Shown in pieces: positions 6,757 through 19,442 of a stretch of 64,000 bases of DNA. The stretch comes from Thermoanaerobaculia bacterium (GTDB lineage Bacteria > Acidobacteriota > Thermoanaerobaculia > Multivoradales > UBA5704). The position numbers and the translations under genes were made by a program. Within the stretch, counting starts at the first letter, position 1; the number at the start of each line of letters is the position of its first letter. A model generated the notes under the pieces. That model was not told the origin of the DNA. It made no database searches and saw only the letters and a list, made by a program, of their open reading frames with translations. The stretch spans positions 32,001-96,000 of the forward strand of contig JBGAGQ010000009.1 of assembly GCA_044226625.1 (NCBI GenBank), given 5' to 3'.

Positions 6757-9632
6757 CTTCCCCTCTCGAGCCGCACCCCGAGCCGTCGCTCGAGGAGATC
6801 CCCGGGTACCGTCGGTTCGAGCGGATCGGCCGCGGCGGCAGCGCTACCGTCTACCGCGCCGAGCAGGAGGGAAACGGCTTCCTGCGCCCCGTCGCTCTCA
6901 AGGTGATCGACCTCTTCGCCGACGCCTCCCGACTGCGCCGGTTCGAGGCCGAAAAGCGCATCCTCGCCGCACTCGAGCACCCCGGAATCGCCCGCCTGTA
7001 CGAGGCCGGGGTCACCTCGGCCGGTCGGCCTTACCTGGCGATGGAGCTGGTACGCGGCGACGACCTGCTCGAGCACTGCCGACGGACCAACGCTTCGACG
7101 CGCGATCGGATCGCGCTGTTCCTGCTCGTCCTCGACGCGGTCGAGCACGCCCATCGGGCGTCGATCGTCCATCGGGATCTCAAGCCGGGCAACGTCCTGG
7201 TCTCCGAGCATGGGGCACCGAAGCTGCTCGACTTCGGCATCGCCCGTCTGCTGGCGCCCGACGAGACCGGCGAAGGAACCGCGCCCCCCGACCCGACGGA
7301 GACCCGACGCCTGCCGTTCACCCCCGCCTACGCGAGCCCCGAGCAGGTCGCGGGAGGCCGGGTCGATCGAGCCTCCGACCTCTATTCACTCGGCGTCGTC
7401 CTCTACGAGATGCTCGCGGGAAGGCGCCCCTATCGCCTCGAAGACGATCGCTTGGCGACGCTCGAGCGGGCGATCCTCGAGCAGGTGCCCGAATCGGCAG
7501 CGCTCGGCCGCGACCTCGACGCAATCCTTCGAAAGGCGCTCGAAAAGGAACCGGCCGACCGCTACGCCTCGGCCGCCGAGCTCGCCACCGACCTGCGCCG
7601 CCACCTCGACGGGAAGCCGGTTCTCGCGCGCCGCGTCTCGCCGCTCGGGCGCTGGGCTCGAGAAGTCGCGCGGCGGCCCGCCCGGGCGATCGCGGCGGTT
7701 CTCCTCGCGCTTCTCGCCGGCGCGCTCGTCCGGTTCGGCCTCGGCACCCAGCCCGCGGAGCGAATCGACGCCGGGCGCCCCGACCCCACCGCTTCGCCGT
7801 TTCTTGCTCTGCCGGTCGCCCCCGCGGCGCTCGCCGATTTTCGCGCCGGGCTCGACGCGCTCGCGCGCCTGGAAACGAAAGCGGCGATCGCGCGGCTCCG
7901 CAAGGCGGTCGCCGCCGATCCCTCCCAACCGCTGATCCACGCCGCACTCGCCACCGCTCACGCGCGGGCTGGGCACGATTTCCTGGCGCGTGGCGAGGGG
8001 AGGAGAGCCCTCGAGCTCGCCCCGGCGGAGCCGCGGGAGAGCCGGCTGCTCGCCGAGGCGACGGCGTTCCAGACCTCCGGCGAAAAGGAGCAGGAGATCG
8101 AACGGCGGCGCGCCCTCTGGGTTCTTGCGCCTACGAATTTCGAGGCCGGGTTCCTGCTCGCGAAGAGCCTCAACGAGACCGGCGGAGGGGAGGAGGCGAT
8201 GACGGTGATCGGCCGGCTGCGAACCACTCCCCCCGGCAAGAGACCGCTCGACGACCTGCGCCTCGGCCTGCTCGAAGGGGAGGCGCTCAACCAGCTCGGG
8301 CGGCCGGCCGAGAACGACGCGGTGTCGGAAAAGGTGATGGCCGCCGCGACGCCGCGCAGCCTGCCGATCGTCGCGGCGATGGGACTCCTGAACCGGGCCC
8401 TCGCCCACGATGCCCTCGCCGTGAACAGCAAGACACAGGCGTTCGCGGCGCAAGCCGAGCGGATGTTCCTCACGCACGGGGAAGCATGGGGCGCCGTCCG
8501 AGCGGCGAATGTCCAGTGCGGCGCCGCGATCCACGACGGCCGGCCGCTCGACGCCGAGCGGGCCTGCCATCGAGCGATCCGAGCCGCCGAGAGCATCGGC
8601 AGCGCGACCTCCATGGCGCGCGGGTTCATGAACCTCGCGATTTCCCAGCGCCTGCGCGGCAACGTCCTCGAAGCGAGAAATACGCTGGCTCGCGCGCTCG
8701 AGATCGAGCGCAACGGCCCGCTCAAGGACCGGATCGCCCTCGGCCGCTATCTGTTCAACCTGGCGAGCCTCGACTCCGACCTCGGCCGGCTGCCCGAGGG
8801 GGAAGAAGAATTCCGGCAGGCCATCGAGCTGCTGCGAGAGGGCGGCAACAAGTTCAGCCTGATGCGGAACTTGAGCGCTCTCGGCCAGATCCTGATCTAT
8901 AGGGGCGCGCTCGAGCAGGCGGCTGCCGCCCTCGACGAGGCCCATCTCCTCGCCCAATCCGTCGGCTCGGACACCGAGCGCGGCCAGATCCTTTGGCGCC
9001 AGGCGGACGTCGCCAAGCTCGAAGGGGACCTGCCGCGCGCGCGGCGTCTGTTCGACCAAGCGGCGGTCGAGTTCGCGAACGCCGAGACCCAGGACATCGT
9101 GGGGCCGTTCCGCGTCTCGCGCCTTCAGATCGAAGTCCCGTCCGAGAAAGCTTGCCGTGCCCTGGAAGCGTCGTCTCCGGAGCTCGCGCGGACCGGCATC
9201 GAGGCCCTGAACGAGCTCGCCGTCGCGATCTCGCGCTGCTGGAGCGACGCGGGGTTTCCGAGCCGCGCCCGGCGTTGGCTCGACCGCTCGGGCACCGAGG
9301 CGGCGAATTCCGAAATCCCGGCGATCCGGGTCGACTACCTGCTCGCCCGCGCCTCGGTCGCGCTCGGCGCGAAACGCTGGGACGAAGCGGGCCAGGATCT
9401 TCGGACGGCCGAGGACCTGTGCCGGAAGTCGTCGCTCGGCAGCCAGCTGATGGAGGTCCGCCTCGTGTCCGCGCGCCTCGCGCTCGCCCGCGGCGAGCAT
9501 CCCGAGCGCGTTCGAACGCTCGCCGAGGAGCTGCGCAGCGACGCCTCGGCGGCGCGGTTCGGGACCATCGCGCGCGAGGCGGGCCTTCTCCTCGATGCGC
9601 AGCTGGACGCGCGGCGCCACGGTCGCCGATAG
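6747..9632 (+). CDS. Transmembrane Ser/Thr protein kinase with TPR ectodomain (paralogue 2)
   Basis: GRGGSATVY, VALK, HRDLKPGN, DFG, TPAYASPEQ; TM IAAVLLALLAGALV; TPR region colinear with paralogue 1. Confidence 0.94.
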   Translation: MLLASPLEPHPEPSLEEIPGYRRFERIGRGGSATVYRAEQEGNGFLRPVALKVIDLFADASRLRRFEAEKRILAALEHPGIARLYEAGVTSAGRPYLAMELVRGDDLLEHCRRTNASTRDRIALFLLVLDAVEHAHRASIVHRDLKPGNVLVSEHGAPKLLDFGIARLLAPDETGEGTAPPDPTETRRLPFTPAYASPEQVAGGRVDRASDLYSLGVVLYEMLAGRRPYRLEDDRLATLERAILEQVPESAALGRDLDAILRKALEKEPADRYASAAELATDLRRHLDGKPVLARRVSPLGRWAREVARRPARAIAAVLLALLAGALVRFGLGTQPAERIDAGRPDPTASPFLALPVAPAALADFRAGLDALARLETKAAIARLRKAVAADPSQPLIHAALATAHARAGHDFLARGEGRRALELAPAEPRESRLLAEATAFQTSGEKEQEIERRRALWVLAPTNFEAGFLLAKSLNETGGGEEAMTVIGRLRTTPPGKRPLDDLRLGLLEGEALNQLGRPAENDAVSEKVMAAATPRSLPIVAAMGLLNRALAHDALAVNSKTQAFAAQAERMFLTHGEAWGAVRAANVQCGAAIHDGRPLDAERACHRAIRAAESIGSATSMARGFMNLAISQRLRGNVLEARNTLARALEIERNGPLKDRIALGRYLFNLASLDSDLGRLPEGEEEFRQAIELLREGGNKFSLMRNLSALGQILIYRGALEQAAAALDEAHLLAQSVGSDTERGQILWRQADVAKLEGDLPRARRLFDQAAVEFANAETQDIVGPFRVSRLQIEVPSEKACRALEASSPELARTGIEALNELAVAISRCWSDAGFPSRARRWLDRSGTEAANSEIPAIRVDYLLARASVALGAKRWDEAGQDLRTAEDLCRKSSLGSQLMEVRLVSARLALARGEHPERVRTLAEELRSDASAARFGTIAREAGLLLDAQLDARRHGRR

Positions 9633-9646
9633 CGGGAGGAACTCCG

Positions 9647-12553
9647 ATGCCCGTCGCCTCCATCCCCGAAGAAGTCGCCGACGAGACGCTCGGCACGATT
9701 GCCGGCTACCGCCTGTTCGAGCCGATCGGCCGCGGCGGCAGCGCCACCGTCTACCGCGCCGAGCAGCGGGGCGACGGTTTCCTCCGGCCGGTCGCCTTGA
9801 AGATCATCGACCGCTTCGCCGACGCGCCGCGGCTGCGCCGCTTCGACGCCGAAAAGCGCATCCTCGCCGCGCTCGAGCACCCGGGAATCGCGCGCCTGTA
9901 CGACGCAGGTTTCACCTCGACCGGCCGGCCCTACCTCGCGATGGAGCTCGTGCGCGGCAGCGATCTCCTCGAGCACTGCCGGCGGACGGGCGCCTCGACG
10001 CGCGAGCGGATCGCCCTGTTCCTGCTCGTCCTCGACGCGGTCGAGCACGCTCACCGCGCTTCGGTCGTCCACCGCGATCTGAAACCGGGAAACGTCGTGG
10101 TCTCCGAGCAGTCGACGCCGAAGCTCCTCGACTTCGGCATCGCCCGCCTGCTTTCGAGCGAGGAGACGACCGGCGGCGGCACGATCGACACCACCGACAC
10201 GGCGGCGCCGGAGGCCCATCCGACGGAGACCCGGCTTTCGCCGTGGACCCCTTCCTACGCGAGCCCCGAGCAGGTCGCGGGCGACAAGGTCGACCGCGCC
10301 ACCGACCTCTATTCGCTGGGCGTCGTCATCTACGAGTTGCTCACCGGACGCCGGCCCTACCGCCTGGCCGACGACCGCCTGGAAACCCTCGAACGAGCGA
10401 TCCGCGAACAGCCGCCGGAACCGCCCGGTCTCGGCCGCGAGCTGGATTCGATCCTCGCCAAAGCGCTCGAAAAACGCCCGGCCGACCGCTACCTTTCGGC
10501 CGCCGATTTCGCCGCGGATCTGCGGCGTCATCTCGAAGGGCGGCCGATCTTCGCTCGGCCCGTCTCGCAGTTCGGGCGCCTCGGCGTCGCGCTCCGCCGC
10601 CGTGGAGCCTCGTCCGCCGTCCTCTCGCTGCTCCTGGTCGTGGCGCTCGTCGCGCTCGCCGCGCTGCTCGGCGGCCCCTCGTTCCGCCGCGCTCGCGAGA
10701 CGTCGGGGCCGGCCGATCCGGCGGCCTCTCCGTTCCTCGCCCTGCCCGTCGCCGCACCGGCGCAGGCGGATTTCGCGGCGGGGCTCGACGCGCTCGCGCG
10801 GTTCGAGACCCGGCGGGCGGTCGCGCGCCTCCGTGCGGCGGCCGACGCCGACCCCGACCAGCCGCTGATCCGCGCCGCGCTCGCGACCGCCCACTCCCGC
10901 GCGGGTCACGACTACCTGGCCCGCGCCGAAGGGCGACGGGCGTTGGACCTCGCGCCGGCCGAGCCGCGCGAAAGCCGCCTGCTCGCCGAGGCGACGGCAC
11001 TCCAGACCTCCGGCGACAAGGCGCGGGAGCTCGAACGGCGCCGCTCGCTCTGGGTCCTCTCGCCGACCCGATTCGAGGCCGGCTATCTGCTCGCGAAGAG
11101 CTTGAACGACGGCGGCACGGCGGACGAGGCGCTCGAGGTGGTCGCCCGGCTGCGCGCCCTGCCGGCCGGCCGCGTCTCGCCGAACGACCTGCGGCTCGGC
11201 CTGCTCGAAGCCGAGGCGCTCAACCAGCTGGGGCGCCCCGCCGACGCCGCGCGCGCGGCTTCGACGGTCGCCGGCGAAGCGATGCGACGGCGCCTGTCCG
11301 CGCTCGCCGCGAACGCCCTTCTACTCGAAAGCCTGGCTCAGGACGGCCTGGGAGCCACCGAGGCCATGGACGCGCTCGCCGTACGGGCGCACCGCCTGTT
11401 CGTACCTCTCGGCGAAACCTGGGGCGTCGCCCGGGCGCTCAACCTACGGTGTATCGCCCGCGTGCGCGATTCGCGCGCCGAGGAGGCCGAGAGGATCTGC
11501 GGCGACTGCATCCGTATGGCCGAACGGGCGGGCAGCGCCACGACCGCCGCTCGCGGGCTCGCGAATCTGGGCATGTCGCGGCGCCACGCGGGGCGCATCG
11601 CCGAGGCCCGGGCTCTCTACGTCCGGGCGATCGAGACCGAGGCGCGCGGACCGCTCCGCGACCGGATGAGCCAGGCGCGCTACCTCCACAACCTGGCGAA
11701 TCTCGACTCCGACCTCGGGCACCTACCGCAGGCGGAGGAGGGGTACCGGAAGTCGGCCGTGATCCTGCGCGAGGCGGGCAATCGCCTCAGCCTGCTGCGC
11801 TCGCTGAACGCGCTCGCCGCGGTGCTCATGTACCGCGGATCGCTCGCCGAAGTGGAAAGCGTTCTCGCCGAGGCCTCCGCCCTCGCGGGATCGGCCGGAT
11901 CGGCCCGAGACCGCGGCATCGTCCTCTGGCGCCGGGGGGATCTCGCCAAGCTCGAAGGCGACCTGCCGCTCGCCCGTAGCCTTTACGACCAGGCGGCGGG
12001 CGAGCTGGCGTCGAACGCTCCCGCGGCGATCGCCGCGCCGTTCGAAGCGTCGCGGAAGCAGCTCGCGCCCTCGTCCGAACGGGCTTGCCGCGACCTCGAG
12101 TCGTCGCACGCCGAGTTGGTTCGGCTCGAAGATCGGGCGGAGAACGAGCTCGCGATCGGCATCGCGCGCTGCTACGACGAGGCCGGATTCCCGCGCCGCG
12201 CCCAGGTCTGGCTCGACCGCGCGGCACCCGGCGCCGCGAGCTCCCAGCTCCCCGCGATCCGGACCGAATTCGAGCTCGTCCGCGCCGCGCTCGCCTTGAA
12301 GGGGCGGCGCTTCGACGAGGCGGACCGAGTGCTGACCGCGGCCACCGCCGCTTGCCGCGAGTTCTCCCTCGGCACCCAGCTCATGGAGGTCCGCCTGCTC
12401 TCCGCGCGTTTGGCTCTGCAACGGGGCGAGCATCCCGAGCGGGTCCGGACGCTCGCCGAAGAGCTCCTACGCGACGCCGAGGCGGGGCGCTTCGGCAAGG
12501 CCGCCCGGGGGGCCCGGGAGATCCTCGCCGCGCCCCGCCTCGCGCGGGGGTGA
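9647..12553 (+). CDS. Transmembrane Ser/Thr protein kinase with TPR ectodomain (paralogue 3)
   Basis: GGGAGGA RBS before ATG 9647; same kinase motifs; TM AVLSLLLVVALVALAALL; TPR region. Confidence 0.94.
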   Translation: MPVASIPEEVADETLGTIAGYRLFEPIGRGGSATVYRAEQRGDGFLRPVALKIIDRFADAPRLRRFDAEKRILAALEHPGIARLYDAGFTSTGRPYLAMELVRGSDLLEHCRRTGASTRERIALFLLVLDAVEHAHRASVVHRDLKPGNVVVSEQSTPKLLDFGIARLLSSEETTGGGTIDTTDTAAPEAHPTETRLSPWTPSYASPEQVAGDKVDRATDLYSLGVVIYELLTGRRPYRLADDRLETLERAIREQPPEPPGLGRELDSILAKALEKRPADRYLSAADFAADLRRHLEGRPIFARPVSQFGRLGVALRRRGASSAVLSLLLVVALVALAALLGGPSFRRARETSGPADPAASPFLALPVAAPAQADFAAGLDALARFETRRAVARLRAAADADPDQPLIRAALATAHSRAGHDYLARAEGRRALDLAPAEPRESRLLAEATALQTSGDKARELERRRSLWVLSPTRFEAGYLLAKSLNDGGTADEALEVVARLRALPAGRVSPNDLRLGLLEAEALNQLGRPADAARAASTVAGEAMRRRLSALAANALLLESLAQDGLGATEAMDALAVRAHRLFVPLGETWGVARALNLRCIARVRDSRAEEAERICGDCIRMAERAGSATTAARGLANLGMSRRHAGRIAEARALYVRAIETEARGPLRDRMSQARYLHNLANLDSDLGHLPQAEEGYRKSAVILREAGNRLSLLRSLNALAAVLMYRGSLAEVESVLAEASALAGSAGSARDRGIVLWRRGDLAKLEGDLPLARSLYDQAAGELASNAPAAIAAPFEASRKQLAPSSERACRDLESSHAELVRLEDRAENELAIGIARCYDEAGFPRRAQVWLDRAAPGAASSQLPAIRTEFELVRAALALKGRRFDEADRVLTAATAACREFSLGTQLMEVRLLSARLALQRGEHPERVRTLAEELLRDAEAGRFGKAARGAREILAAPRLARG

Positions 12554-12575: not shown

Positions 12576-14009
12576 TTAGAGCGGTCCGAAAGCGAACAGG
12601 ATCGACTTGTCGTTGATCTGGGACACCGCGTAGAGGCGCCCGTCGACGGTCAAGGCGGGGTGCGCGTTGTGGAACTCCTGGATCGTGAGCGCGTGCGTCA
12701 GGCTCTGCAGGTCGTGCTCGAAGATTCCCAGCTCGTCGAGGTTCGGCACGACCACCTCGTTCGCGCTCGCCGCCAGGCCGGCCGCGAGACCGAGCACGGG
12801 ATAGGGCTGGGGACGAAGCGTCGACGTGAGCTCCTTGGTCCCCGGCTTGAGGAAATGCACCGCGTGATCCGCCGGCACGATCCAGGCGTCCCCGGCGAGC
12901 GCGGGCGGGTTCATCACCGGCTCGCCCGCGTCGTAAGTCGCCTTGAGCGAGAACGAGGCGAGATCGTAGATCCGGACCCGGTGGCAGCTCGCGCCGAAGA
13001 CGACCAGGCCTTCCGGCGTGACCGTCGGGCTCGAGAGCCGCACGCCGTCGGCCTCCGCGCGATCGCCCCAGCGCTTGACTAGGCGACCCGGAACCGTCGC
13101 GGCCGCCGGGTCGAACTGGAGCACCTCGAGACGCGACCGGCAGTGATGATCGGTCAAGGCGACCAGCGGCGCGGTCGGGGTCGAAAAACCGTGGAGCGGC
13201 GTGTCGAGGATCGCCGGCGTCGACTCCGTCGGCCAGCCGTAGGTCTCGAACAGGGGCCCGCTTGCCATGGCCTCGAGCCCGCCCGCGTCCTTCGCCCGGC
13301 TCGCGCTCTTCCGGAAGGCGCCGCCGCCGTGGAGGTCGATGCACCCCTCGCCCACCGGGTGGCGGGCGAAGATCTGGCCCGCCCCGTCGAACACCACCAG
13401 CTCATGGAAGGAGTACGGCGCGAAGGAGAGGTCCCAGTTGGAGAACGCCACGTGGACGAAGACGAACGACTGACCGTCGAGCGTCCAGACCTTCGGCGAG
13501 CCGGACGACTTGCTCGGATTCCTGAACATGGTCGGCAGGTCGACCTGCCACACCGTCGTGCAGTTCGGGGCGACCCGGACGAGAGCGGTCTGATCGTGGG
13601 TATCGGTCGGCCGCGTCACCAGAAGCGCCACGTCGCCGTTCGGAAACATTGCGGGGACCGAGAGGATATGGGCCGATTTGAAGTTCCGGCTGCACTGCAC
13701 GTCGCCGTTCGGCCGGAACGCCCAGAGCGTGCCGGTTTCCGTCCCGACGTAGATCGTGCCCGCGACCGGGTCGACGATCGGGCCTCCCGCGCCGACGTTG
13801 CCGTCGAGTTGGTACGCCCAGTTGGCGACCACCGGAACCTTGGTGAACGAGTTGACGAAGCTCGTGTTCGAGAGATTTCCGTACGCCTGGTCCCACCCGG
13901 CCGCGGCGCGGGACGGCACGGCGCCCCCCATCCAAGCGACGACGCCCGCCAGAACGGCGTGGACCAACGCCCCGCGAAGCCCGCGGTTCCCACTCCCACG
14001 TGGACTCAT
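12576..14009 (-). CDS. Secreted PQQ-like beta-propeller protein
   Basis: AAGGAGAG RBS; signal peptide; WDQAYGN..NTS, IYVGTETGTLWAF, SSPTVTPEGLVVFG repeats. Confidence 0.75.
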   Translation of the reverse strand: MSPRGSGNRGLRGALVHAVLAGVVAWMGGAVPSRAAAGWDQAYGNLSNTSFVNSFTKVPVVANWAYQLDGNVGAGGPIVDPVAGTIYVGTETGTLWAFRPNGDVQCSRNFKSAHILSVPAMFPNGDVALLVTRPTDTHDQTALVRVAPNCTTVWQVDLPTMFRNPSKSSGSPKVWTLDGQSFVFVHVAFSNWDLSFAPYSFHELVVFDGAGQIFARHPVGEGCIDLHGGGAFRKSASRAKDAGGLEAMASGPLFETYGWPTESTPAILDTPLHGFSTPTAPLVALTDHHCRSRLEVLQFDPAAATVPGRLVKRWGDRAEADGVRLSSPTVTPEGLVVFGASCHRVRIYDLASFSLKATYDAGEPVMNPPALAGDAWIVPADHAVHFLKPGTKELTSTLRPQPYPVLGLAAGLAASANEVVVPNLDELGIFEHDLQSLTHALTIQEFHNAHPALTVDGRLYAVSQINDKSILFAFGPL

Positions 14010-14094
14010 GACCCTCTCCTTTCGGATTCGTACCGTGACGACGGGAGAGGCGGAAAAACCCGGAGTCCGGGGCCAGGCGGGGGCGCCCCGAGCC

Positions 14095-14592
14095 CTACTT
14101 GCCCGATCTCTTCTTGAACGACCAGGTGAACGCGAACCGCGCGGCGACCGTGCCGTCCGGCAGGCGTCCGATCGTCTCCGCACGCACGGTCTGCGGCTCG
14201 CCGGTCTCGATCGCCTGGGCGACCGCGGTGGCGATTTGCGGACCGGCGTCGCAGGTGAAGGTCAACCGGGCGCTCGCCTTCTTTTCGAACGCCGCTTCGA
14301 GACCGACGATCAGAAGGGCGACCGGCGCTTTCGATACCTCGATCGCCGCCATCGCGAGCGCGCCGGTCGAGAGCTCCGCCGCCATCGCCTGGGCCGCGAA
14401 GTAGATTGAGCGGAACGGGTTGGTCGACCGCCAGCCGTACGGGAGCGAGACGACGCATCGCTCGGTCGAGATCTCGTCGATCCGCAACCCCGCGAACAGG
14501 GCGAGCGGCAGCTTCGAGAGGAAATAGAGCCGCATCAGGAACCGCGAGCGGGCCTGGCGGAGGAACTTCGAATCGTTCGTCGTCGGAGGCAT
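14095..14592 (-). CDS. Hotdog-fold thioesterase-like protein (DUF4442/PaaI-like)
   Basis: LPLALFAGLRI...LPYGWRSTNPFRSIYFAAQAMAAELSTG...FEKKA. Confidence 0.8.
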   Translation of the reverse strand: MPPTTNDSKFLRQARSRFLMRLYFLSKLPLALFAGLRIDEISTERCVVSLPYGWRSTNPFRSIYFAAQAMAAELSTGALAMAAIEVSKAPVALLIVGLEAAFEKKASARLTFTCDAGPQIATAVAQAIETGEPQTVRAETIGRLPDGTVAARFAFTWSFKKRSGK

Positions 14593-14640
14593 GAGGCGAT
14601 GGATCTTACCGGACGCCGCGGCCCGCACCGCGCGACCGCC

Positions 14641-14792
14641 GACCGCTCGGCGCCGTCACTTCGAGAGAGCGGTCACCGCTCCTCATCCTCCTCACGCCAG
14701 TTACGAGACCGACGGAAGCGACCCGACGGTCTCGCGTATCGACGCCTGGGACGCGGTTCCCTCCGCGCTCGACCGCGGAGGGAATCCCCAGG
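14641..14792. other. Cluster of three GC-rich hairpins in non-coding DNA
   Basis: GACCGCTC/GAGCGGTC (14641-14674); CGAGACCG/CGGTCTCG (14704-14734); TTCCCTCCGCG/CGCGGAGGGAA (14757-14784) enclosed by CCTGGG/CCCAGG. Confidence 0.6.
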
Positions 14793-14837
14793 TCTCGCGA
14801 CGCGCCGCGAAGCTACCGCGCACGAAGACCCCGGCGC

Positions 14838-15298
14838 CGCGCTCCGGTGCCGCGCGACGGCGCCCTCCTCCTTCAACGTGACGCTTCCCTTCCGCAACAC
14901 GAGGTACGAATCACGGGACAAGACGAATTATCGACGAGACACGATGCACCAGTTCGTAGACACGATGCACCGCTTCCGCAACACGAGGCAGCGGTGCTGC
15001 ATCGGAACGTTTCGCGACAAAGCCGAGGAGAAGGCCTTCCGGGCGTCGGCGGAATCGTTCTGGGAGCCATTAAAGAGGTGCGCGAGCTCTCGGCAGCGAA
15101 TCCTCGCGTTCCGTCATCGGTCCCTTGCGGTGCGTTCCGAACGTTGTGATCCATGGGACCTCTCATCTGCGTTGCGAGACCGGTGCGTAGCGTGATTGCA
15201 CCGGTGCGCAGCGTCTCGTCGCCGGTAACCGACTCGGTCGCGCCTCTCCCCAACATTGCGTTAGGAGCGTCCGCACCGACCGATTTGCTCGCGCGGCT
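14838..15298. repeat. Degenerate 21-bp tandem array, about 22 units
   Basis: AGACACGATGCACC at 14937 and 14958 (21 apart); CTTCCGCAACACGAGG at 14889 and 14973 (84 apart); ACCGGTGCGYAGCGT at 15179 and 15200 (21 apart); register appears to be kept across the tract. Confidence 0.75.
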
Positions 15299-15762
15299 CA
15301 ATCCGGAGATGCCGAGCTCGCGACGGCCGGATTCCGGTAGCGCGTCGGCGCACGCCCCTCCCCGCGCACCTCGACCTGCAATCGTCCGGCGTCCGCCATC
15401 TCCTGGAGCACCCGGAACAGCGAGCTGCGCTCCGGTTCCCAGGGGAGCACGGCCAGTAAGTCGTTTCGGCTGAACCGTTCCGGAAGCCGCTCGAGCGCAG
15501 CCTCCACTTCGGCCTGCAGCTGTCCCGGCTGCCGCCGCACGCGCTTCGCCGGAACCGGAGGTACCTCCCGCTCGAGGCCCAAAGCGGCGGCCGGTGCGGC
15601 TGGAACCGCGCCCCCCGGGCCGGCCTCCCCCTCCGCCGTGGTCATCCAGACGAGGTCCAGCGCCCGCCGCTGCTGCCGGTGCGCTGCTTCCAGAAGCTCG
15701 ATTCCGGCTCGGAGCTGCTCGTCGAGCTGGCGTTTGCGGGTCTCATATTCATGTTGCGTCAT
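15298..15762 (-). CDS. Hypothetical protein: N-terminal coiled coil, C-terminal probable winged helix
   Basis: MTQHEYETRKRQLDEQLRAGIELLEAAHRQQRRALDLVW; low-complexity linker; LPERFSRNDLLAVL...RSSLFRVLQEMADAGRLQVEVRGEGRAPTRYR. Confidence 0.75.
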   Translation of the reverse strand: MTQHEYETRKRQLDEQLRAGIELLEAAHRQQRRALDLVWMTTAEGEAGPGGAVPAAPAAALGLEREVPPVPAKRVRRQPGQLQAEVEAALERLPERFSRNDLLAVLPWEPERSSLFRVLQEMADAGRLQVEVRGEGRAPTRYRNPAVASSASPD

Positions 15763-15797
15763 GCGATGCATTGCAACACGGAGAGCGTTCGCAACAC
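15752..15797 (-). promoter_or_regulatory. Putative operator repeats over the promoter/start of the wHTH gene
   Basis: GCAACAC at 15773 and 15791 plus inverted TGTTGC at 15752. Confidence 0.45.
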
Positions 15798-15931
15798 AAG
15801 ACGTCGATCCCCGGGATCCGCTCCTTCAGGGTCGGCCTCGCTCCCCCTTCTTAGCCTCCCTTCCGAGCGGGGGGATGAACGACCGGGAACGCGAGATCCT
15901 CGCCAAGGCGGGAAAGTGGTACTCTCCCACC

Positions 15932-16258
15932 ATGGCAGAGCCAGTCCGACAGCCGAAAACTCGTACCTCGTTTCTGACGCTGGATCCGAAGGGGCGCGCG
16001 ACGTTTCCCGAGGACGTTCGAAGGGCGTTGTCCGTCGGCCCAGGCGACCTCATCCTGCTGGAGCGCACGGAGCGAGGAACCTTCGAGCTGGTGCCCGCGA
16101 CCTTAGTGCCTACCGACCAGCTCTGGTTCCATCATCCGGAAATGCAGGAACGGATCGCTCGAGCGGAGAAGGACTTCGCGGAGGGCCGGTCGACGCGTAC
16201 GCGTACCCCCGAGGAAGCACAGGACTTTCTCGACGGTCTGAAGAAGCTTCGTCGATAG
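15932..16258 (+). CDS. AbrB/MazE/SpoVT-family antitoxin
   Basis: LTLDPKGRATFPEDVRRALSVGPGDLILL...DQLWFHHPEMQERIARAEKDFAEGR; TGGTACTCT extended -10 6 nt upstream. Confidence 0.85.
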   Translation: MAEPVRQPKTRTSFLTLDPKGRATFPEDVRRALSVGPGDLILLERTERGTFELVPATLVPTDQLWFHHPEMQERIARAEKDFAEGRSTRTRTPEEAQDFLDGLKKLRR

Positions 16259-16259
16259 C

Positions 16260-16562
16260 GTGGCGCGAAAGCAGGTGTTCCTCGCGGCCGAATGGTCGGA
16301 GCCATGGAAGGAGAGCTACGCAAACCTGAGCTCCGATCGGCAGGCCGGCTGCGACAAAGCCGTCATCGCCCTCATCAAGCGTGTGGACTCGCCGGGGCTT
16401 CGGATCAAGCCCATCCATCCCGACAAATATTTCGTCGAAGCCCGAATCAATAGTGGCGACCGCATCGTGTTCCGTATCGAGGGAGACACGATCCTGTTCG
16501 TGGACGTCGTAAAGCACGACGACATCTCTCGCTACGGATCGAGGCCTGGAAAGCGCGGCTGA
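16260..16562 (+). CDS. RelE/ParE-fold toxin-like protein
   Basis: SPGLRIKPI...FVEARINSGDRIVFRIEGDTILFVDVVKHD; directly follows the antitoxin. Confidence 0.75.
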   Translation: MARKQVFLAAEWSEPWKESYANLSSDRQAGCDKAVIALIKRVDSPGLRIKPIHPDKYFVEARINSGDRIVFRIEGDTILFVDVVKHDDISRYGSRPGKRG

Positions 16563-16580
16563 GCAAATGAAACGCAGGAA

Positions 16581-16609
16581 CGCCCCGGGCCTCACCAAGG
16601 CCCGGGGCG
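16581..16609. terminator. Hairpin terminator between convergent genes
   Basis: CGCCCCGGGCCT-cacca-AGGCCCGGGGCG 12-bp stem; T-rich tail on minus strand. Confidence 0.65.
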
Positions 16610-16643
16610 CGCACGATTCGTCCTCTCGGTTCGCGGGCCTTTC

Positions 16644-18581
16644 CTACCGCTTACTCACCAGGTAAGGAATCGCCGCCTTGATCGCGTCGCCGATGATCGC
16701 CCCGGCCTTCGAGTCGCCGGTCGTGTCGTCGGTGGTCCAGTCCTCGGTGAACATCGCGACGCTGAATTGGTGCGAGAGCGAGGTGTAGTCGCCCGAGCCG
16801 AAGTCCCAGTTCCAGGCGACGCCGATCCAGCTCTTCACTTTGTATTTGCCGCCGTCCTTGCCGCCCCAGGCCTGGAAGGCGCCGTTCGCGGGGGGCGCGT
16901 AGGAGTTGTTCTTGTCGAGCTCGCGGACGAGGTCCCCTTCGTCGAACACGGTAAGCAGGTCGTGGTCGGCGAGGCCGCGGAAGAAGCGCCCGACCTCGGC
17001 CGGGGTCACGGAGTTCGCGAGGGTGTTGTAGTAGAGGTCGTAGCGCGCGTCGTTCGAGACGCCCGAGTTGTTGACCTTCGTGAAGCAGGCCTTGTCGGCC
17101 GCGGTCGAGTAGGTCAGGTCGCCCGCGCGGAACCAGCTTTCGAAGCTGTGGCACGGCACCGAATAGACGCAGGCGTCGGCGTTGCCCTGGATCCGCTTGT
17201 CCACCGTGCAGATGCTGGTGATCTCTCCGACGTTCTGCATCGAGGCCTGCGAGGCGAGGAATTCGTTCACCGCGAGGCCACCATCGAAGTGCTCGATCAA
17301 ACCGAACAGTCGATCCGTCGAGCAACTGTCGCTGTTGTCGATCATGTGGTCCAGGTACGTCGCGATCGTTTGATTGTCGCCGATGTCCGCCTTGGTGAAT
17401 CCGCGGGTCGTCTCGCCGCGCCAGTCGCCGGTGCGCAGCTGATAAAGGTCGCCCGCCGCGAGCTCGGGCATCGTGACCTCCTTGGCGGCGATGAACGTCT
17501 TCGCGGCCGAGGCGAGATAGAACGGCTCGTTCGGATTGAACGCGATCCAGTGGCCGGTGGTGAGGTCCTCGATGTAGAAGCCGACGGAGCCTTTTCGCCC
17601 GTCGCTTCCGTTCGTCGTGTATTCGACGAGCTTCGATTTCAGTTGATCGATCGCGGCGCCGCTCAAGGCCACGTTACCGGTGAGGACGTTCCTCGCCTGA
17701 CGCCGGATCCAGATCCCCGAGAAACGCAGCTCCGAGCCGACATAGTAGGCGTCGAGGTCCACCTCGAGGTAGTTGGCTTTCTTCTGCTCGATGATCGCGC
17801 CCTGCATCTGCGCGGCGGTCCGATCGCGCAAAGAGATCCAGCCGTCGATGCCGCTCTCGCGTACCCAAAGGCCGGCGTAGCGCAGACCCGCGGAGGTCGG
17901 ATAGGCGGCGATGTCGACCGGCCGATAGCCAGCGTTCTTATAGAAGGTCCACCAGGAGCTGTAGTCCGCCGAGGTGAGATCGCGCTTGTAGCCGAAATCG
18001 GTCAAGCCGTCCTGGACCCAGACCGCGGCGTAATAGGTCGTGCTTCCCACGCGATAGCCGTTCACCCGGATCGGGCGGAAGCGCTGCCCGGCGTACTCGG
18101 CCATTTTCGCGTCCAATTGCGCGAGGGTGAGGATGCGGTGCGACTTGAACGGCTTCGTGCCCCCCTGCTCCTTGATCCAGATCGCGTTGTAATAGGGCGT
18201 CCCGGAGACGACGTGGGCATCGAGGTCGAGCACCCGGAAGCCCTGGCCGATCAGCTGATCCCACAGCGACTGATAGGCGGCAGCGGTCAGACCGCGCTTC
18301 GAGGTCCAGGCGGTGATACTCGAATCCTTGTGCCAGAGACCGCTGTAGCGCGTCGCGGCGCCCGATCGCTCGACGCCCGAAAGATTCACCGGCGCGTAAC
18401 CGAGATCCCGCCAATGCGTCCAGGCCGCGCTGTAGGAAGAATCGGCCACCCCGCCGACCTCCTGGCCAAAGACGACCGGATTGCCGGCCCAAGGTCCAAC
18501 GGCGAGCGCGGGCGAAGCCGCGAGAACTAGCGCCGCCGCGACAGCTCCTCGACGGCAACGGGAAAGAATGTTCTGGAACAT
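16644..18581 (-). CDS. Secreted serine hydrolase: about five tandem BTRD1/polyglycine-hydrolase-like repeats plus class A beta-lactamase-like domain
   Basis: Signal peptide; repeats of G[YF]R..D...Y......RY[AS][GA].W; YLASAAK (SxxK), NSDS, GKDGG. Confidence 0.85.
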   Translation of the reverse strand: MFQNILSRCRRGAVAAALVLAASPALAVGPWAGNPVVFGQEVGGVADSSYSAAWTHWRDLGYAPVNLSGVERSGAATRYSGLWHKDSSITAWTSKRGLTAAAYQSLWDQLIGQGFRVLDLDAHVVSGTPYYNAIWIKEQGGTKPFKSHRILTLAQLDAKMAEYAGQRFRPIRVNGYRVGSTTYYAAVWVQDGLTDFGYKRDLTSADYSSWWTFYKNAGYRPVDIAAYPTSAGLRYAGLWVRESGIDGWISLRDRTAAQMQGAIIEQKKANYLEVDLDAYYVGSELRFSGIWIRRQARNVLTGNVALSGAAIDQLKSKLVEYTTNGSDGRKGSVGFYIEDLTTGHWIAFNPNEPFYLASAAKTFIAAKEVTMPELAAGDLYQLRTGDWRGETTRGFTKADIGDNQTIATYLDHMIDNSDSCSTDRLFGLIEHFDGGLAVNEFLASQASMQNVGEITSICTVDKRIQGNADACVYSVPCHSFESWFRAGDLTYSTAADKACFTKVNNSGVSNDARYDLYYNTLANSVTPAEVGRFFRGLADHDLLTVFDEGDLVRELDKNNSYAPPANGAFQAWGGKDGGKYKVKSWIGVAWNWDFGSGDYTSLSHQFSVAMFTEDWTTDDTTGDSKAGAIIGDAIKAAIPYLVSKR

Positions 18582-18826: not shown

Positions 18827-19129
18827 TCAACGCCCGCGCCAGTACTCCGGACGCCTCTTCTGATGAGCGACGGCGACAACCTGGATTCTCCCGCGGGGAT
18901 CCAGTCGGTAGATCAGGTCGAAGGGGTAGCGATTTGGAAAAACATAGTGCCGGCAGCCCTTACGGCGAACGGGCCATCGCTCGGGAGCTTCCATGACCGC
19001 GGCGACCGCCTGATCGACCGCCAATACGAAGCCGTGCGCCGCGAGCGGACTCCGCTCCGCGTACCAAGCCTTTGCTTCGTTGGCATCCGCGATCGCATCG
19101 GGATGCCAATCGGGCTCACTCGAAGCCAT
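18827..19129 (-). CDS. ParE/RelE-family toxin
   Basis: WHPDAIADANEAKAWYAERSPLAA...RYPFDLIYR...VVAVAHQKRRPEYWRGR. Confidence 0.9.
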   Translation of the reverse strand: MASSEPDWHPDAIADANEAKAWYAERSPLAAHGFVLAVDQAVAAVMEAPERWPVRRKGCRHYVFPNRYPFDLIYRLDPRGRIQVVAVAHQKRRPEYWRGR

Positions 19130-19340
19130 CGAAAAGGCGCTTGCGGACCTCGGACCAGGGCGTCATCTCGACGGCTCCTTCGTCGATCTGGCGAACTCGG
19201 CGATCGATCTCTGGGTCCCATGCCGCTTGAGCGTCCGGATCGGCCCTTGGCTCGAGGCTCTCGATCAGCGCGCCGGCGATGGCGGCACGGGCCTTCTCGT
19301 CCAGCATCAGCGCTTGTTCCAGAAGCAGCTCAACGGTCAT
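19116..19340 (-). CDS. Addiction-module antitoxin (TIGR02574-like)
   Basis: LLEQALML...RAAIAGALIESL...AWDPEIDRRVRQIDEGAVEMTPWSEVRKRL. Confidence 0.88.
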   Translation of the reverse strand: MTVELLLEQALMLDEKARAAIAGALIESLEPRADPDAQAAWDPEIDRRVRQIDEGAVEMTPWSEVRKRLFDGFE

Positions 19341-19442
19341 GACGACATCATACGCCTCCCGGCGCCCCCGGACCTCCCCCGGAAACCCCTGTGCTACGCT
19401 CCCGGCCGGTCGCTTCCGCCGTCCCATCCGAGAGGGTGATTC

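What the first reader, a model, noticed from the sequence alone, without database searches (positions are those of the whole stretch)
14641..15797. Unexplained module: coiled-coil/winged-helix gene followed by about 22 degenerate 21-bp units and a hairpin cluster
Seen: directly after the stop of the 154-aa gene (minus strand) lies ~460 bp with 21-nt periodicity. Exact repeats recur at 21 and 84 bp, and the register appears unbroken although units are heavily substituted. In + frame the units read RAPVPRD/DASLPQH/DAPVRRH/DAPLPQH/ARPVRSV/IAPVRSV/VAPLPNI, but a TGA at 15147 breaks that frame and its reverse-complement frame also has stops. Conserved length with free substitution is not what simple slippage repeats or CRISPR arrays look like. 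Inference: 21 bp is two helical turns, so this may be a phased binding array for an oligomeric wHTH protein, a processed RNA array, or a diversified sequence reservoir. I know no described system with this layout.
Basis: partly seen in the sequence, partly recalled or inferred. Interest (0 to 1): 0.8.

Follow-up and report, generated by a model that had tools for sequence, protein, structure and literature searches.

The report
Winged-helix gene with phased 21-bp array
A small gene for a DNA-binding-type protein is followed by about 25 head-to-tail 21-letter repeats laid out in two opposed blocks, and this gene-plus-array unit recurs at almost every copy of the gene in one family of Acidobacteria yet fits no described system.

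Summary
Window 14790-15300 has a lag-21 autocorrelation of z=7.75, with peaks at all multiples up to 126. The repeat is non-coding.

The 154-aa gene (15298-15762, minus strand) encodes a long N-terminal helix, a disordered Pro/Ala linker and a C-terminal winged helix. It has no Pfam or NCBIfam family.

- **Linkage:** in 27 of 30 loci of this family, from 8 genomes, a 21-bp array starts 0-230 bp after the stop codon. None lies upstream.
- **Partner:** no other gene is shared between loci.
- **Layout:** every linked array has two blocks of opposite unit orientation.
- **Register:** 293 of 312 unit spacings are exact multiples of 21. Indels between orthologous arrays are whole units.

My best reading (0.55) is a cognate, helically phased binding array coated by the dimeric winged-helix protein. 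Binding is inferred, not shown.

The same genome also holds about 56 non-coding 21-bp arrays, and only 3 adjoin this family. The arrays are therefore a lineage-wide element class. I found no published description. An earlier scan note reports a parallel case on other DNA.

The parts
15298..15762 (-). Gene for a 154-aa protein: N-terminal long helix (about residues 3-44), Pro/Ala-rich disordered linker, C-terminal winged helix-turn-helix. Stop codon at 15298-15300.
   Evidence: ORF list. Start fixed by a 28-sequence family alignment. AlphaFold2 model with mean pLDDT 79, helix 6-47 and wHTH 84-153 in the 157-aa numbering. Best Foldseek matches are Zur, RTP, PadR, MarR and ArsR winged helices, all weak at E about 1e-2. 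No Pfam or NCBIfam hit.
15763..15800 (-). Family-conserved promoter-like region: -35-like TTGTGT/TTGCGA around 15789-15797 and an extended -10-like TGTGTTGCAAT (15770-15780), about 8 nt before the ATG. It holds two copies of GTGTTGCRA, a word that also occurs in the array.
   Evidence: Alignment of 27 upstream regions: consensus CTTGCG..N17..TGTGnTGCAAT, then 8-14 nt to the ATG in most rows. GTGTTGCRR occurs 6 times in the 64-kb window against 1.08 expected. Four of the six lie in this module: 15771, 15789, 14892 and 14976.
15095..15250 (.). Gene-proximal arm of the array: units of type GCACCGGTGC + AATCACGCTACG (gene sense), in the orientation opposite to the distal arm.
   Evidence: Stacked rows. 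A PWM scan gives two minus-oriented units at window 15200-15220 and 15095-15115 (L012). Long-range inverted pairs 14835-14850/15198-15213 and 14791-14803/15169-15181.
15000..15094 (.). Most decayed middle stretch of the array, holding the orientation switch. The register is kept but unit identity is low.
   Evidence: Lag-21 local identity 0.31-0.45. Rows in register.
14868..14999 (.). Distal arm, the best-preserved units (gene sense GGTGCATCGTGTCTACG / CCTCGTGTTGCGGAAG). Five consecutive PWM units at 14891-14995.
   Evidence: (TRF 14937-14990). The word GTGTTGCGG is conserved in both orthologous arrays.
14700..14867 (.). Decayed distal tail of the array, with weaker lag-21 signal in the same register. 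It overlaps the local hairpins.
   Evidence: Lag-21 local identity 0.33-0.45. GGTCTCGCG recurs 63 bp apart (rows 14721 and 14784).
14634..14784 (.). Specific to this genome and not a conserved part of the module.
   Evidence: the repeat finder I4, I6 and I3. Absent as 14-27-bp gaps in the orthologues L016 and L018. No other copy in the genome.

Best explanation
This is a self-contained gene-plus-site module. The 154-aa protein most likely dimerises through its long N-terminal helix. Its C-terminal winged helices read a short core in each 21-bp unit; in this locus the core is the palindrome GCACCGGTGC plus a GTGTTGCGG-type flank.

Because 21 bp is exactly two turns of B-DNA, all 20-30 sites face the same side of the helix. 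Many copies can then bind side by side and cooperatively, coating 0.3-0.7 kb just downstream of their own gene. The two blocks of opposite unit orientation give the complex a two-fold layout, with two antiparallel arms meeting at one switch point.

Shown: the periodicity, its non-coding nature, the gene-array linkage, the opposed arms, whole-unit indels and the fold class.

Inferred: that this protein binds this array, that it dimerises, and what the coated array does. My preferred functional guess is a high-capacity cis-linked sink or roadblock, or a chromosomal landmark that may also be matched in trans by the other arrays of the same unit type in the genome.
For: 1. Linkage. 27 of 30 loci of the family, from 8 genomes, have a downstream lag-21 signal of z=5.7-17.2. 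The same test on the 700 bp upstream gives lag-21 z of at most 4.4, and below 3 in 29 of 30 loci. Arrays start 0-230 bp after the stop and hold 8-33 units.

2. No other gene is shared. In 21 loci of +-7 kb, only the gene itself clusters across all loci.

3. Fold. A winged helix with weak sequence and structure matches to Zur, RTP, PadR, MarR and ArsR DNA-binding domains, plus a 42-residue N-terminal helix.

4. Units look like protein sites on duplex DNA. The palindromic core has no loop (GCACC|GGTGC), and conservation is limited to spaced positions.

5. The period is under constraint.
- 293 of 312 same-orientation spacings in the 27 linked arrays are exact multiples of 21.
- 642 of 658 are in the genome's other arrays.
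- In three syntenic orthologues the arrays are only 43-71% identical, against 82-86% at the neighbouring gene's start.
- Yet the in-array indels are exactly 21 bp, twice.

6. Opposed arms. All 27 linked arrays show at least one orientation switch, and 22 show exactly one. This is visible by eye in L034, L029, L021, L008 and C84. In the eight arrays of the GAAATTCGCTGAAGTC type the polarity relative to the gene is always the same.

7. Clade-level match. All nine proteins whose recognition helix reads DRGxxRRNL lie in one clade; eight of them carry GCTGAAG-type arrays, and L024's unit shares only part of that motif. None of the proteins with the DR(G/S)SL(Y/F)R helix carries this type.

8. Weak lead. 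Array units resemble the gene's own -10-region word. The mean of own-locus promoter-to-array match scores is 6.44, against 6.28 +-0.067 when promoters are permuted among arrays (p=0.013). The own promoter ranks first in 5 of 25 arrays, with ties.
Against: - No binding experiment or protein-DNA model exists.
- In this genome only 3 of about 56 non-coding 21-bp arrays adjoin a family member. Arrays can therefore exist without an adjacent gene of this family.
- Several arrays share unit types, for example about 8 of the GCACCGGTGC type. The sites are therefore not private.
- A PWM test for array-type sites in each gene's own upstream region was mostly negative: 4 of 27 loci at p<0.05 and 1 at p<0.01.
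- The promoter-array resemblance could reflect shared A+T-rich words, and related loci are not independent.
- A site array at the 3' end of the gene is unusual for autoregulation.
- The clade-motif match can be explained by co-inheritance alone.
- Three loci lack an array. Two are the identical C93 copies, where a DDE transposase gene lies directly downstream. The third is the distant G070 homologue.
Confidence: 0.55

Rival explanations
1. The 21-bp arrays are an autonomous, lineage-wide class of intergenic repeat, a REP/BIME-like or minisatellite-like element read or made by some other, common factor. On this view the winged-helix gene merely travels with, regulates or exploits one subclass, without coating its array.
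For: - The genome holds 66 lag-21 arrays of at least 300 bp, about 56 of them non-coding, in roughly 8-10 unit types.
- Only 3 adjoin this family.
- Arrays favour gene 3' ends: 17 convergent, 24 tandem and 5 divergent intergenic contexts among the 46 that could be typed.
- One unit type has a conserved palindromic flank of about 150 bp. Its terminal word occurs in 23 groups, 11 of them within about 80 bp of an array.
- A second, unrelated small-protein family also sits beside arrays: at least 7 of its 19 members lie within 100 bp of one, and 11 within 700 bp.
Against: - With about 56 arrays among roughly 6000 genes, chance adjacency is near 1%. The observed rate is 27 of 30, always at the 3' side and with fixed arm polarity.
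- The unit type follows the protein clade.
- Two-armed layout is universal in linked arrays (27 of 27), but 17 of the 56 other arrays have no switch.
- No common candidate factor was identified.
Confidence: 0.2
2. The array acts as RNA: a structured 3' UTR, a long imperfect hairpin formed by the two arms, or a precursor cut into about 21-nt units. The protein would act as an RNA binder or regulator.
For: - The array lies on the gene's sense side directly after the stop, and no terminator-like site lies between them.
- The minimum-energy fold of 14640-15300 (minus strand) pairs the proximal arm with the distal arm, with z=-2.24 on 20 shuffles.
Against: - No Rfam match at E<=1.
- Many unit palindromes have zero loop and cannot fold within a unit.
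- Stem mismatches are mostly non-wobble: 567 other, 253 G:T, 223 A:C.
- Mirror units of the two arms are no more complementary than any other pair, in the 15 arrays with at least 3 units per arm.
- An exact 21 period in every array, whatever its sequence, fits the B-DNA helical repeat and has no RNA rationale.
- No RNA data were available.
Confidence: 0.1
3. The array is a decayed protein-coding heptad-repeat gene (a pseudogene), or a short overlapping ORF such as 14873-15301 (minus strand, 142 aa, TTG start overlapping the stop).
For: - 21 bp equals 7 codons.
- A 142-aa ORF starts at the gene's stop codon.
- About 10 other lag-21 arrays in the genome are true coding heptad repeats, with G+C at one codon phase of 0.9 or more.
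Against: - In the 27 linked arrays no frame or strand is consistently open.
- G+C is flat over the three phases, at most about 0.8, whereas coding arrays in the same genome reach 0.96-0.99.
- C84 and others carry 19/20/22/23-bp units that break any frame.
- Unit orientation flips within each array.
- Pfam finds nothing in either long ORF.
Confidence: 0.03

Closest known systems
F-plasmid SopB (ParB_F) with its centromere sopC/parS_F
   Same: A DNA-binding protein is paired with an array of head-to-tail repeats that carry its binding sites. Twelve 43-bp tandem repeats hold the ParB_F sites (PMC8465637, figure legend, read by 'find'). That sopC lies directly downstream of sopB is my recollection.
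   Different: - Here no ParA-type ATPase or any other partner gene is conserved.
- The protein is a single winged helix of 154 aa with no ParB family hit.
- Units are 21 bp, 8-33 per array, in two opposed arms.
- The module is chromosomal, with 1-10 copies per genome.
- It has no relative in plasmid or phage records.
Iteron replicons with a control array after the initiator gene (P1 RepA-incA, F RepE-incC; recalled, not checked in a paper here)
   Same: Tandem sites of about 19-22 bp lie downstream of the gene of the winged-helix protein that binds them. The sites are helically phased and act as a titrating or handcuffing sink.
   Different: - The protein is half the size of Rep initiators, has one winged helix rather than two, and gives no Rep family hit.
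- There is no origin-side iteron set upstream.
- The arrays are several-fold longer and two-armed.
- The context is not a plasmid.
BldC of Streptomyces
   Same: A small wHTH-type protein forms cooperative multimers on variable numbers of tandem direct repeats, making a protein-DNA filament (PMC5859096, abstract and passages read by 'find').
   Different: - BldC is a MerR-like protein of 68 residues without a coiled coil.
- It binds 9-bp head-to-tail repeats, with a stoichiometry of 2 or 4 subunits per duplex on the sites measured, at target promoters.
- It is not linked to a 0.5-kb array after its own gene.
Replication terminator protein RTP with opposed Ter sites (Bacillus subtilis; biology recalled)
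   Same: A winged-helix dimer with a long dimerising helix. The RTP/B-site complex 1f4k is the third Foldseek hit (E=1.8e-2). The sites occur in two groups of opposite polarity.
   Different: - The fold match is generic and weak.
- Ter sites are few and spread over a large terminus region, not 20-30 contiguous 21-bp units.
- Here there are several modules per genome with different unit types.
REP/BIME elements of enterobacteria and pseudomonads (recalled)
   Same: Short imperfect palindromes occur in many copies, mostly in intergenic regions at gene 3' ends, sometimes clustered, and in several sequence types per genome.
   Different: - Here units are strictly head-to-tail at exactly 21 bp, for 8-37 units.
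- No alternating-orientation linkers are present.
- No RAYT transposase link was examined.
- There is a specific adjacent protein family.
Earlier scan note e1-5245283: HU-wHTH paralogues with private 21-bp palindromic repeat arrays in another order
   Same: A small winged-helix-type paralogue family where each copy sits beside its own array of 21-bp palindromic repeats (an AI note, unchecked).
   Different: - The protein family is different (an HU-like fusion).
- Its arrays hold about four units and lie ahead of the gene.
- I did not examine that DNA.

Membership tests
Plasmid/chromosome partition locus (ParB/SopB-type centromere module) | Centromere made of repeated binding sites next to the binding-protein gene | tested here: met
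   An array directly follows the gene in 27 of 30 loci.
Plasmid/chromosome partition locus (ParB/SopB-type centromere module) | Partner NTPase gene (ParA, ParM or TubZ type) in the same operon | tested here: not met
   No gene other than the wHTH gene is shared across 21 loci of +-7 kb.
Plasmid/chromosome partition locus (ParB/SopB-type centromere module) | Centromere-binding protein of ParB-HTH, RHH (ParR/ParG) or TubR type | tested here: inconclusive
   No Pfam or NCBIfam hit. The fold is a generic winged helix, and TubR-like proteins are also winged helices. No specific match appears in the listed Foldseek rows.
Plasmid/chromosome partition locus (ParB/SopB-type centromere module) | Carried on a plasmid or prophage, or present as one chromosomal origin-proximal locus | tested here: not met
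   No tblastn match in 72,556 plasmid or 50,697 phage records. There are 1-10 copies per genome, and synteny is conserved in three species of the genus.
Iteron-type replicon (Rep initiator + iterons) | Initiator with two winged-helix domains and Rep family signatures | tested here: not met
   154 aa with one winged helix. No family hit.
Iteron-type replicon (Rep initiator + iterons) | Tandem 17-22-bp iterons | tested here: met
   21-bp units; 293 of 312 spacings are exact multiples of 21.
Iteron-type replicon (Rep initiator + iterons) | Origin-side iterons with an A+T-rich unwinding element and DnaA boxes | tested here: not met
   No lag-21 signal upstream of the gene. G+C stays at 0.61 or above across 14550-15900. 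DnaA boxes were not searched.
CRISPR array | Repeats separated by unique spacers of similar length | tested here: not met
   Units abut head to tail with no spacers.
REP/BIME-type dispersed palindromes | Many intergenic copies of short imperfect palindromes, biased to gene 3' ends | tested here: met
   About 56 non-coding arrays. Context is 17 convergent, 24 tandem and 5 divergent among 46 typed.
REP/BIME-type dispersed palindromes | Association with a RAYT (IS200/IS605-like) transposase; single or alternately inverted units with linkers | not tested
   RAYT genes were not searched.
Heptad-repeat protein gene or pseudogene | A reading frame with coding-type codon-position G+C through the repeat | tested here: not met
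   Flat G+C by phase and stops in the frames across the 27 arrays. True coding arrays in the same genome reach 0.96-0.99 at one phase.
Rfam RNA families | Covariance-model match | tested here: not met
   0 matches at E<=1 in window 13500-17000.
RTP/Tus-type replication fork trap | Polar terminator protein with sites in two opposed groups flanking the terminus | tested here: inconclusive
   Opposed groups are present. The fold match to RTP is weak (E=1.8e-2). The position relative to the replication terminus cannot be told from 133 contigs.

The most novel reading that the evidence does not exclude
This Acidobacteria lineage may carry a previously unseen kind of bacterial chromatin element. Dozens of exactly two-turn-phased operator arrays per genome would act as natural counterparts of engineered lacO/tetO arrays. 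Each unit type would be read by a small dedicated DNA-binding protein. The winged-helix family described here, with its two-armed arrays, would be the first identifiable reader-site pair. The resulting 0.3-0.9-kb nucleoprotein filaments would serve as chromosomal landmarks, insulators or polar barriers between genes, or as bridges between loci that share a unit type.
Probability: 0.25. Interest if true: 0.9.

Novelty: new variant of a known kind. Interest (0 to 1): 0.8.

Why it matters
If the protein does coat its array, this is a compact, partner-less reader-plus-site module that recurs up to ten times per genome with different specificities. The site geometry is exactly 21 bp, in two opposed arms, and it survives heavy sequence decay.

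That gives a clean natural system for three questions:
- how helical phasing, rather than sequence, is selected;
- how paralogous DNA readers diverge together with their sites;
- what long protein-coated tracts do in a bacterial chromosome.

The wider finding also points to an unannotated layer of genome architecture. About 56 such arrays occur in one 6.6-Mb genome, and most are invisible to standard repeat finders once they have decayed. This is a poorly studied phylum.

The protein family has 762 clusters at 50% identity in public data, and no member carries a functional name.

Tried and rejected
- **Dimer prediction**: no verdict. The score was 0.44 and one control scored 0.52, so this counts neither for nor against.
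- **Expression:** no RNA holder is listed among the public runs.
- **Reads laid from four DNA runs**: only short, low-depth contigs. One near-identical strain fragment covers 15063-15338. One contig from the likely source sample has a 1-bp insertion at 15085. Nothing could be learned about unit-number variation.
- **The search for related loci:** With the single protein on metagenome contigs it gave one truncated locus, which I did not use.
- **Array-type operators upstream of each gene**: 4 of 27 loci at p<0.05. The cross-locus control is invalid because the promoters share a conserved -10 word.
- **Promoter-word versus array matrix**: a weak signal, p=0.013.
- **Wobble asymmetry test for RNA stems**: the apparent asymmetry is confounded by mismatches fixed in unit consensuses, so it is inconclusive on strand. 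Only the excess of non-pairing mismatches is informative.
- **Mirror-unit test between arms**: negative.
- **Exact double-palindrome pattern across 301 genomes**: 3 genomes matched. The pattern is too strict for decayed arrays and was uninformative.
- **Genome scan with three array PWMs**: it found one further array of the C84 type, on C74, but no scattered single sites above the median unit score beyond a few.
- **ESM Atlas**: only unnamed Acidobacteriota clusters, plus a weak AbiEi_4 lead at 0.86 that I did not follow.
- **Serine/threonine kinase genes** lie near 7 of 21 loci. I judged this a likely chance effect of an abundant family, but did not test it.
- **Literature:** five full-text searches found no description of such arrays or of this family. 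Supplementary files were not consulted.
Full report
**1. What is in the window**

The minus-strand ORF 15298-15771 belongs to a conserved family.

Directly after its stop codon the sequence is periodic. In 14790-15300 the lag-21 identity is 0.424, z=7.75 against 500 dinucleotide-preserving shuffles. Every multiple up to 126 is also raised, with z between 3.3 and 6.5. The 95th percentile of the best lag in the shuffles is 3.4.

A sliding measure places the signal at about 14700-15250. Stacked in 21-bp rows, one register holds for 29 rows. Only a few columns are conserved: T 19/29, C 21/29, G 20/29, G 21/29 and A 17/29. These are the outer positions of the palindrome GCACCGGTGC, which straddles unit junctions.

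Tandem Repeats Finder sees only 2.6 copies.

**2. The array is not coding and is not a known RNA**

In this array and in 26 related ones, no strand or frame is consistently open. G+C is flat over the three codon phases. Genuine coding heptad repeats in the same genome reach 0.96-0.99 at one phase.

Several arrays hold single 19, 20, 22 or 23-bp units, which would break any frame. Pfam finds nothing in the two long ORFs over the array. Rfam finds nothing at E<=1.

**3. The protein**

AlphaFold2 on the family alignment gives mean pLDDT 79. It shows one long helix (residues 6-47 of the 157-aa form), a disordered Pro/Ala-rich linker and a C-terminal winged helix at 84-153.

Profile search of PDB sequences and Foldseek both return winged-helix DNA binders: Zur, RTP, PadR, MarR and ArsR. 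All are weak, at E about 1e-2. There is no Pfam or NCBIfam family.

The family has 92 close clusters, and the few that carry an organism name are from Acidobacteriota or Thermoanaerobaculia assemblies. In 1.84 billion representatives it has 762 clusters at E<=1e-3. It has no relative in plasmid or phage records. A homodimer prediction gave no verdict.

**4. The module recurs**

The window's genome has five members. A sample of 301 genomes of the class has the family in 8. These are 6 of the 7 other genomes of the window's own taxonomic family, the window's genome itself, and one genome elsewhere. Copy numbers run from 1 to 10 matches per genome.

I tested the 30 loci that were returned. Thirteen weaker or partial matches had no locus and were not examined.
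- 27 loci have a strong lag-21 signal in the 700 bp after the stop (z=5.7-17.2).
- The 700 bp before the gene give a lag-21 z of at most 4.4.
- Arrays begin 0-230 bp after the stop and hold 8-33 units.

The three exceptions are as follows. Two are the identical copies on contig C93. They sit in a 1952-bp direct duplication, with a DDE transposase gene (rve plus Mu-transposase C-terminal domain) directly downstream. The third is a distant homologue in another family of the class.

In 21 loci extended to +-7 kb, the only gene shared by all is the winged-helix gene itself. The module is therefore gene plus array, with no partner.

**5. Anatomy and evolution of the arrays**

A PWM built from each array and scanned on both strands shows two blocks of opposite unit orientation in every linked array: exactly one switch in 22 arrays, two in 4 and three in 1. 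The flip is plain to the eye in L034, L029, L021, L008 and C84.

In the eight arrays with GAAATTCGCTGAAGTC-type units, the gene-proximal block always has that word on the sense strand and the distal block has its complement. Block sizes vary from 2:15 to 13:9.

In the window, the proximal arm lies around 15095-15250 and the best-kept distal arm at 14868-14999. Long-range inverted matches between the two arms fit this layout.

The period is kept strictly. 293 of 312 same-orientation spacings are multiples of 21.

The window's locus has syntenic orthologues in two other species of the genus. There the arrays are only 43-71% identical, against 82-86% at the start of the neighbouring DUF4442 gene. 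Yet the in-array indels are two insertions of exactly 21 bp.

For an array this decayed, neutral evolution should have scrambled the register many times over. That is my estimate from usual indel-to-substitution ratios, not a computed result. The period is therefore selected while most of the sequence is free.

Since 21 bp is two turns of B-DNA, this points to a function on duplex DNA that needs all units on one face.

**6. RNA and hairpin readings**

- Many unit palindromes have no loop (GCACC|GGTGC, CGAA|TTCG).
- In the best intra-unit 'stems' of 52 arrays, non-pairing mismatches (567) outnumber G:T (253) and A:C (223).
- Units at mirror positions of the two arms are no more complementary than any other pair, in the 15 arrays with at least 3 units in each arm.
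- The minimum-energy fold of the window's array does pair the two arms, but with only z=-2.24 on 20 shuffles.
- No RNA data exist for this organism among the listed runs.

**7.

Three observations favour this:
- the linkage, with fixed side and fixed polarity;
- the fold;
- a clade-level correspondence: the nine proteins with the recognition helix DRGxxRRNL form one clade, eight of them carry GCTGAAG-type units (L024's unit shares only part of that motif), and none of the DR(G/S)SL(Y/F)R proteins does.

The upstream regions of 27 genes share a promoter-like CTTGCG-N17-TGTGnTGCAAT that, in most rows, ends 8-14 nt before the ATG.

In the window, the word GTGTTGCRR occurs six times in 64 kb against 1.08 expected. 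Two copies lie in this promoter and two in the array, 84 bp apart.

Across loci, arrays resemble their own gene's -10 word slightly more than other genes' words. The mean of own-locus match scores is 6.44, against 6.28 +-0.067 when promoters are permuted among arrays (p=0.013). The own promoter ranks first in 5 of 25 arrays. This is a lead only, because loci are related and the words are A+T-rich.

A direct PWM test for array-type sites upstream of each gene was largely negative, with 4 of 27 loci at p<0.05. Binding therefore remains an inference.

**8. The wider picture**

A lag-21 scan of the whole 6.6-Mb assembly finds 66 arrays of at least 300 bp. About 10 are coding heptad repeats. About 56 are non-coding arrays of 6-37 units, some nearly perfect, with lag identity up to 0.94.

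By eye, their units fall into some 8-10 types. Examples are about 13 arrays of the CCAGTGGTGATCTGGTCCAGA type, about 8 of the GCACCGGTGC type (including the window's), and 5 of the GATCCCGCGCGAAGGA type.

They sit in intergenic DNA, preferentially at gene 3' ends: 17 convergent, 24 tandem, 5 divergent and 10 untypable. 642 of 658 spacings are multiples of 21.

Only three adjoin the winged-helix family.

A second unnamed family of about 125-aa coiled-coil proteins has 19 members. At least 7 lie within 100 bp of an array and 11 within 700 bp, in those cases with the array on the 5' side. None lies near the winged-helix loci.

One unit type has a conserved palindromic flank of about 150 bp.

The window's module is thus one well-defined member of a lineage-wide class of two-turn-phased arrays. 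This both strengthens the case that the period matters and weakens the idea that each array is private to an adjacent gene.

**9. Comparison with known systems**

The nearest analogues are centromere and iteron modules.
- sopB-sopC of F has twelve 43-bp repeats carrying the ParB_F sites (PMC8465637, figure legend).
- P1 RepA-incA (recalled, not checked in a paper here).
- Filament-forming small regulators such as BldC (PMC5859096, abstract and passages).

The module fails the defining tests of each. It has no NTPase partner, no Rep-type initiator, no plasmid context, no MerR-like fold, and a different unit size and number.

RTP with opposed Ter sites shares the winged-helix dimer idea and the opposed polarity, but nothing else testable here.

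That is a parallel case, not the same family.

Five full-text searches found no description of this family or of such arrays.

**10. Verdict**

- The RNA and pseudogene readings are unlikely.
- I file it as a new variant of the 'DNA-binding protein with adjacent array of its sites' kind.
- There remains a real chance (0.25) that the genome-wide arrays represent a new class of chromosomal element.

Noticed in passing
Whole assembly G000 (e.g. C33:47947-48324, C58:228149-228421, C81:127878-128277, C124:7592-8608); none other inside this window: About 56 non-coding arrays of exactly 21-bp units, 6-37 units each and some nearly perfect. They fall into some 8-10 unit types and lie mostly at gene 3' ends. 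Many sit near contig ends, so more may be unassembled.
   Followed up: partly
G000: C41:41677-42069, C123:4573-4953, C109:48824-49216, C11:10810-11175, C93:113834-114205 and others: A second unnamed family of about 125-aa coiled-coil proteins with a basic tail. It has 19 members in the genome and no Pfam hit. At least 7 lie within 100 bp of a 21-bp array and 11 within 700 bp, in those cases with the array on the 5' side. None lies near the winged-helix loci.
   Followed up: partly
G000: C86:184474-184579, C60:31854-31951, C17:57431-57533, C46:41513-41602, C105:12723-12830, C58:206024-206123: A conserved palindromic element of about 150 bp (inverted GAGAAAACGATAGTTTT words) abuts arrays of one unit type. 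11 of 23 occurrences in the genome lie within about 80 bp of an array. Other pairs of the word lie 390-550 bp apart. It could be a MITE-like element or a leader.
   Followed up: partly
window 15763-15800 and the matching upstream regions of 26 other loci: A family-wide conserved promoter-like sequence, CTTGCG-N17-TGTGnTGCAAT, that in most of the 27 rows ends 8-14 nt before the ATG. This suggests leaderless or very short-leader transcripts.
   Followed up: partly
G000:C93:4031-9270: The two array-less copies of the gene are identical and lie in a 1952-bp direct duplication (99.8% identical). A DDE transposase gene (rve plus Mu-transposase C-terminal domain) lies directly downstream of the first copy. 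A strong 21-bp array lies 4.6 kb away at C93:370-914.
   Followed up: partly
window 15880-16562 (+) and 18827-19427 (-): Two putative toxin-antitoxin pairs flank the module. One is a weak MazE/AbrB-like plus ParE-like pair. The other is a RelE/ParE-like ORF overlapping a small antitoxin-like ORF. A ParE-like gene also follows the C84 array.
   Followed up: no
G000: C109:47807-48241, C46:21717-22097, C76:30578-31024: Pterin-4a-carbinolamine dehydratase-like genes (Pfam PF01329 for the C109 copy) sit beside three arrays, next to members of the 125-aa family. In C46 and C76 they may lie in one open frame with it.
   Followed up: no
G000: C13:33355-36343, C7:3718-4024, C16:25885-26194, C109:37331-37702, C37:25225-25706: About ten lag-21 arrays are true coding heptad repeats inside large genes, with G+C of 0.9 or more at one codon phase. 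They must be separated from the non-coding class in any genome-wide scan.
   Followed up: no
window 8993-12553 (+) and 6 other loci: A serine/threonine kinase with TPR repeats lies within 7 kb of the winged-helix gene in 7 of 21 loci. Three of these are the same syntenic locus. It is probably an abundant family, but this was not tested.
   Followed up: no
window 15085: One contig from a run of the likely source sample carries an extra G inside the array. Depth is about 5, so it may be an error or a minor variant.
   Followed up: no
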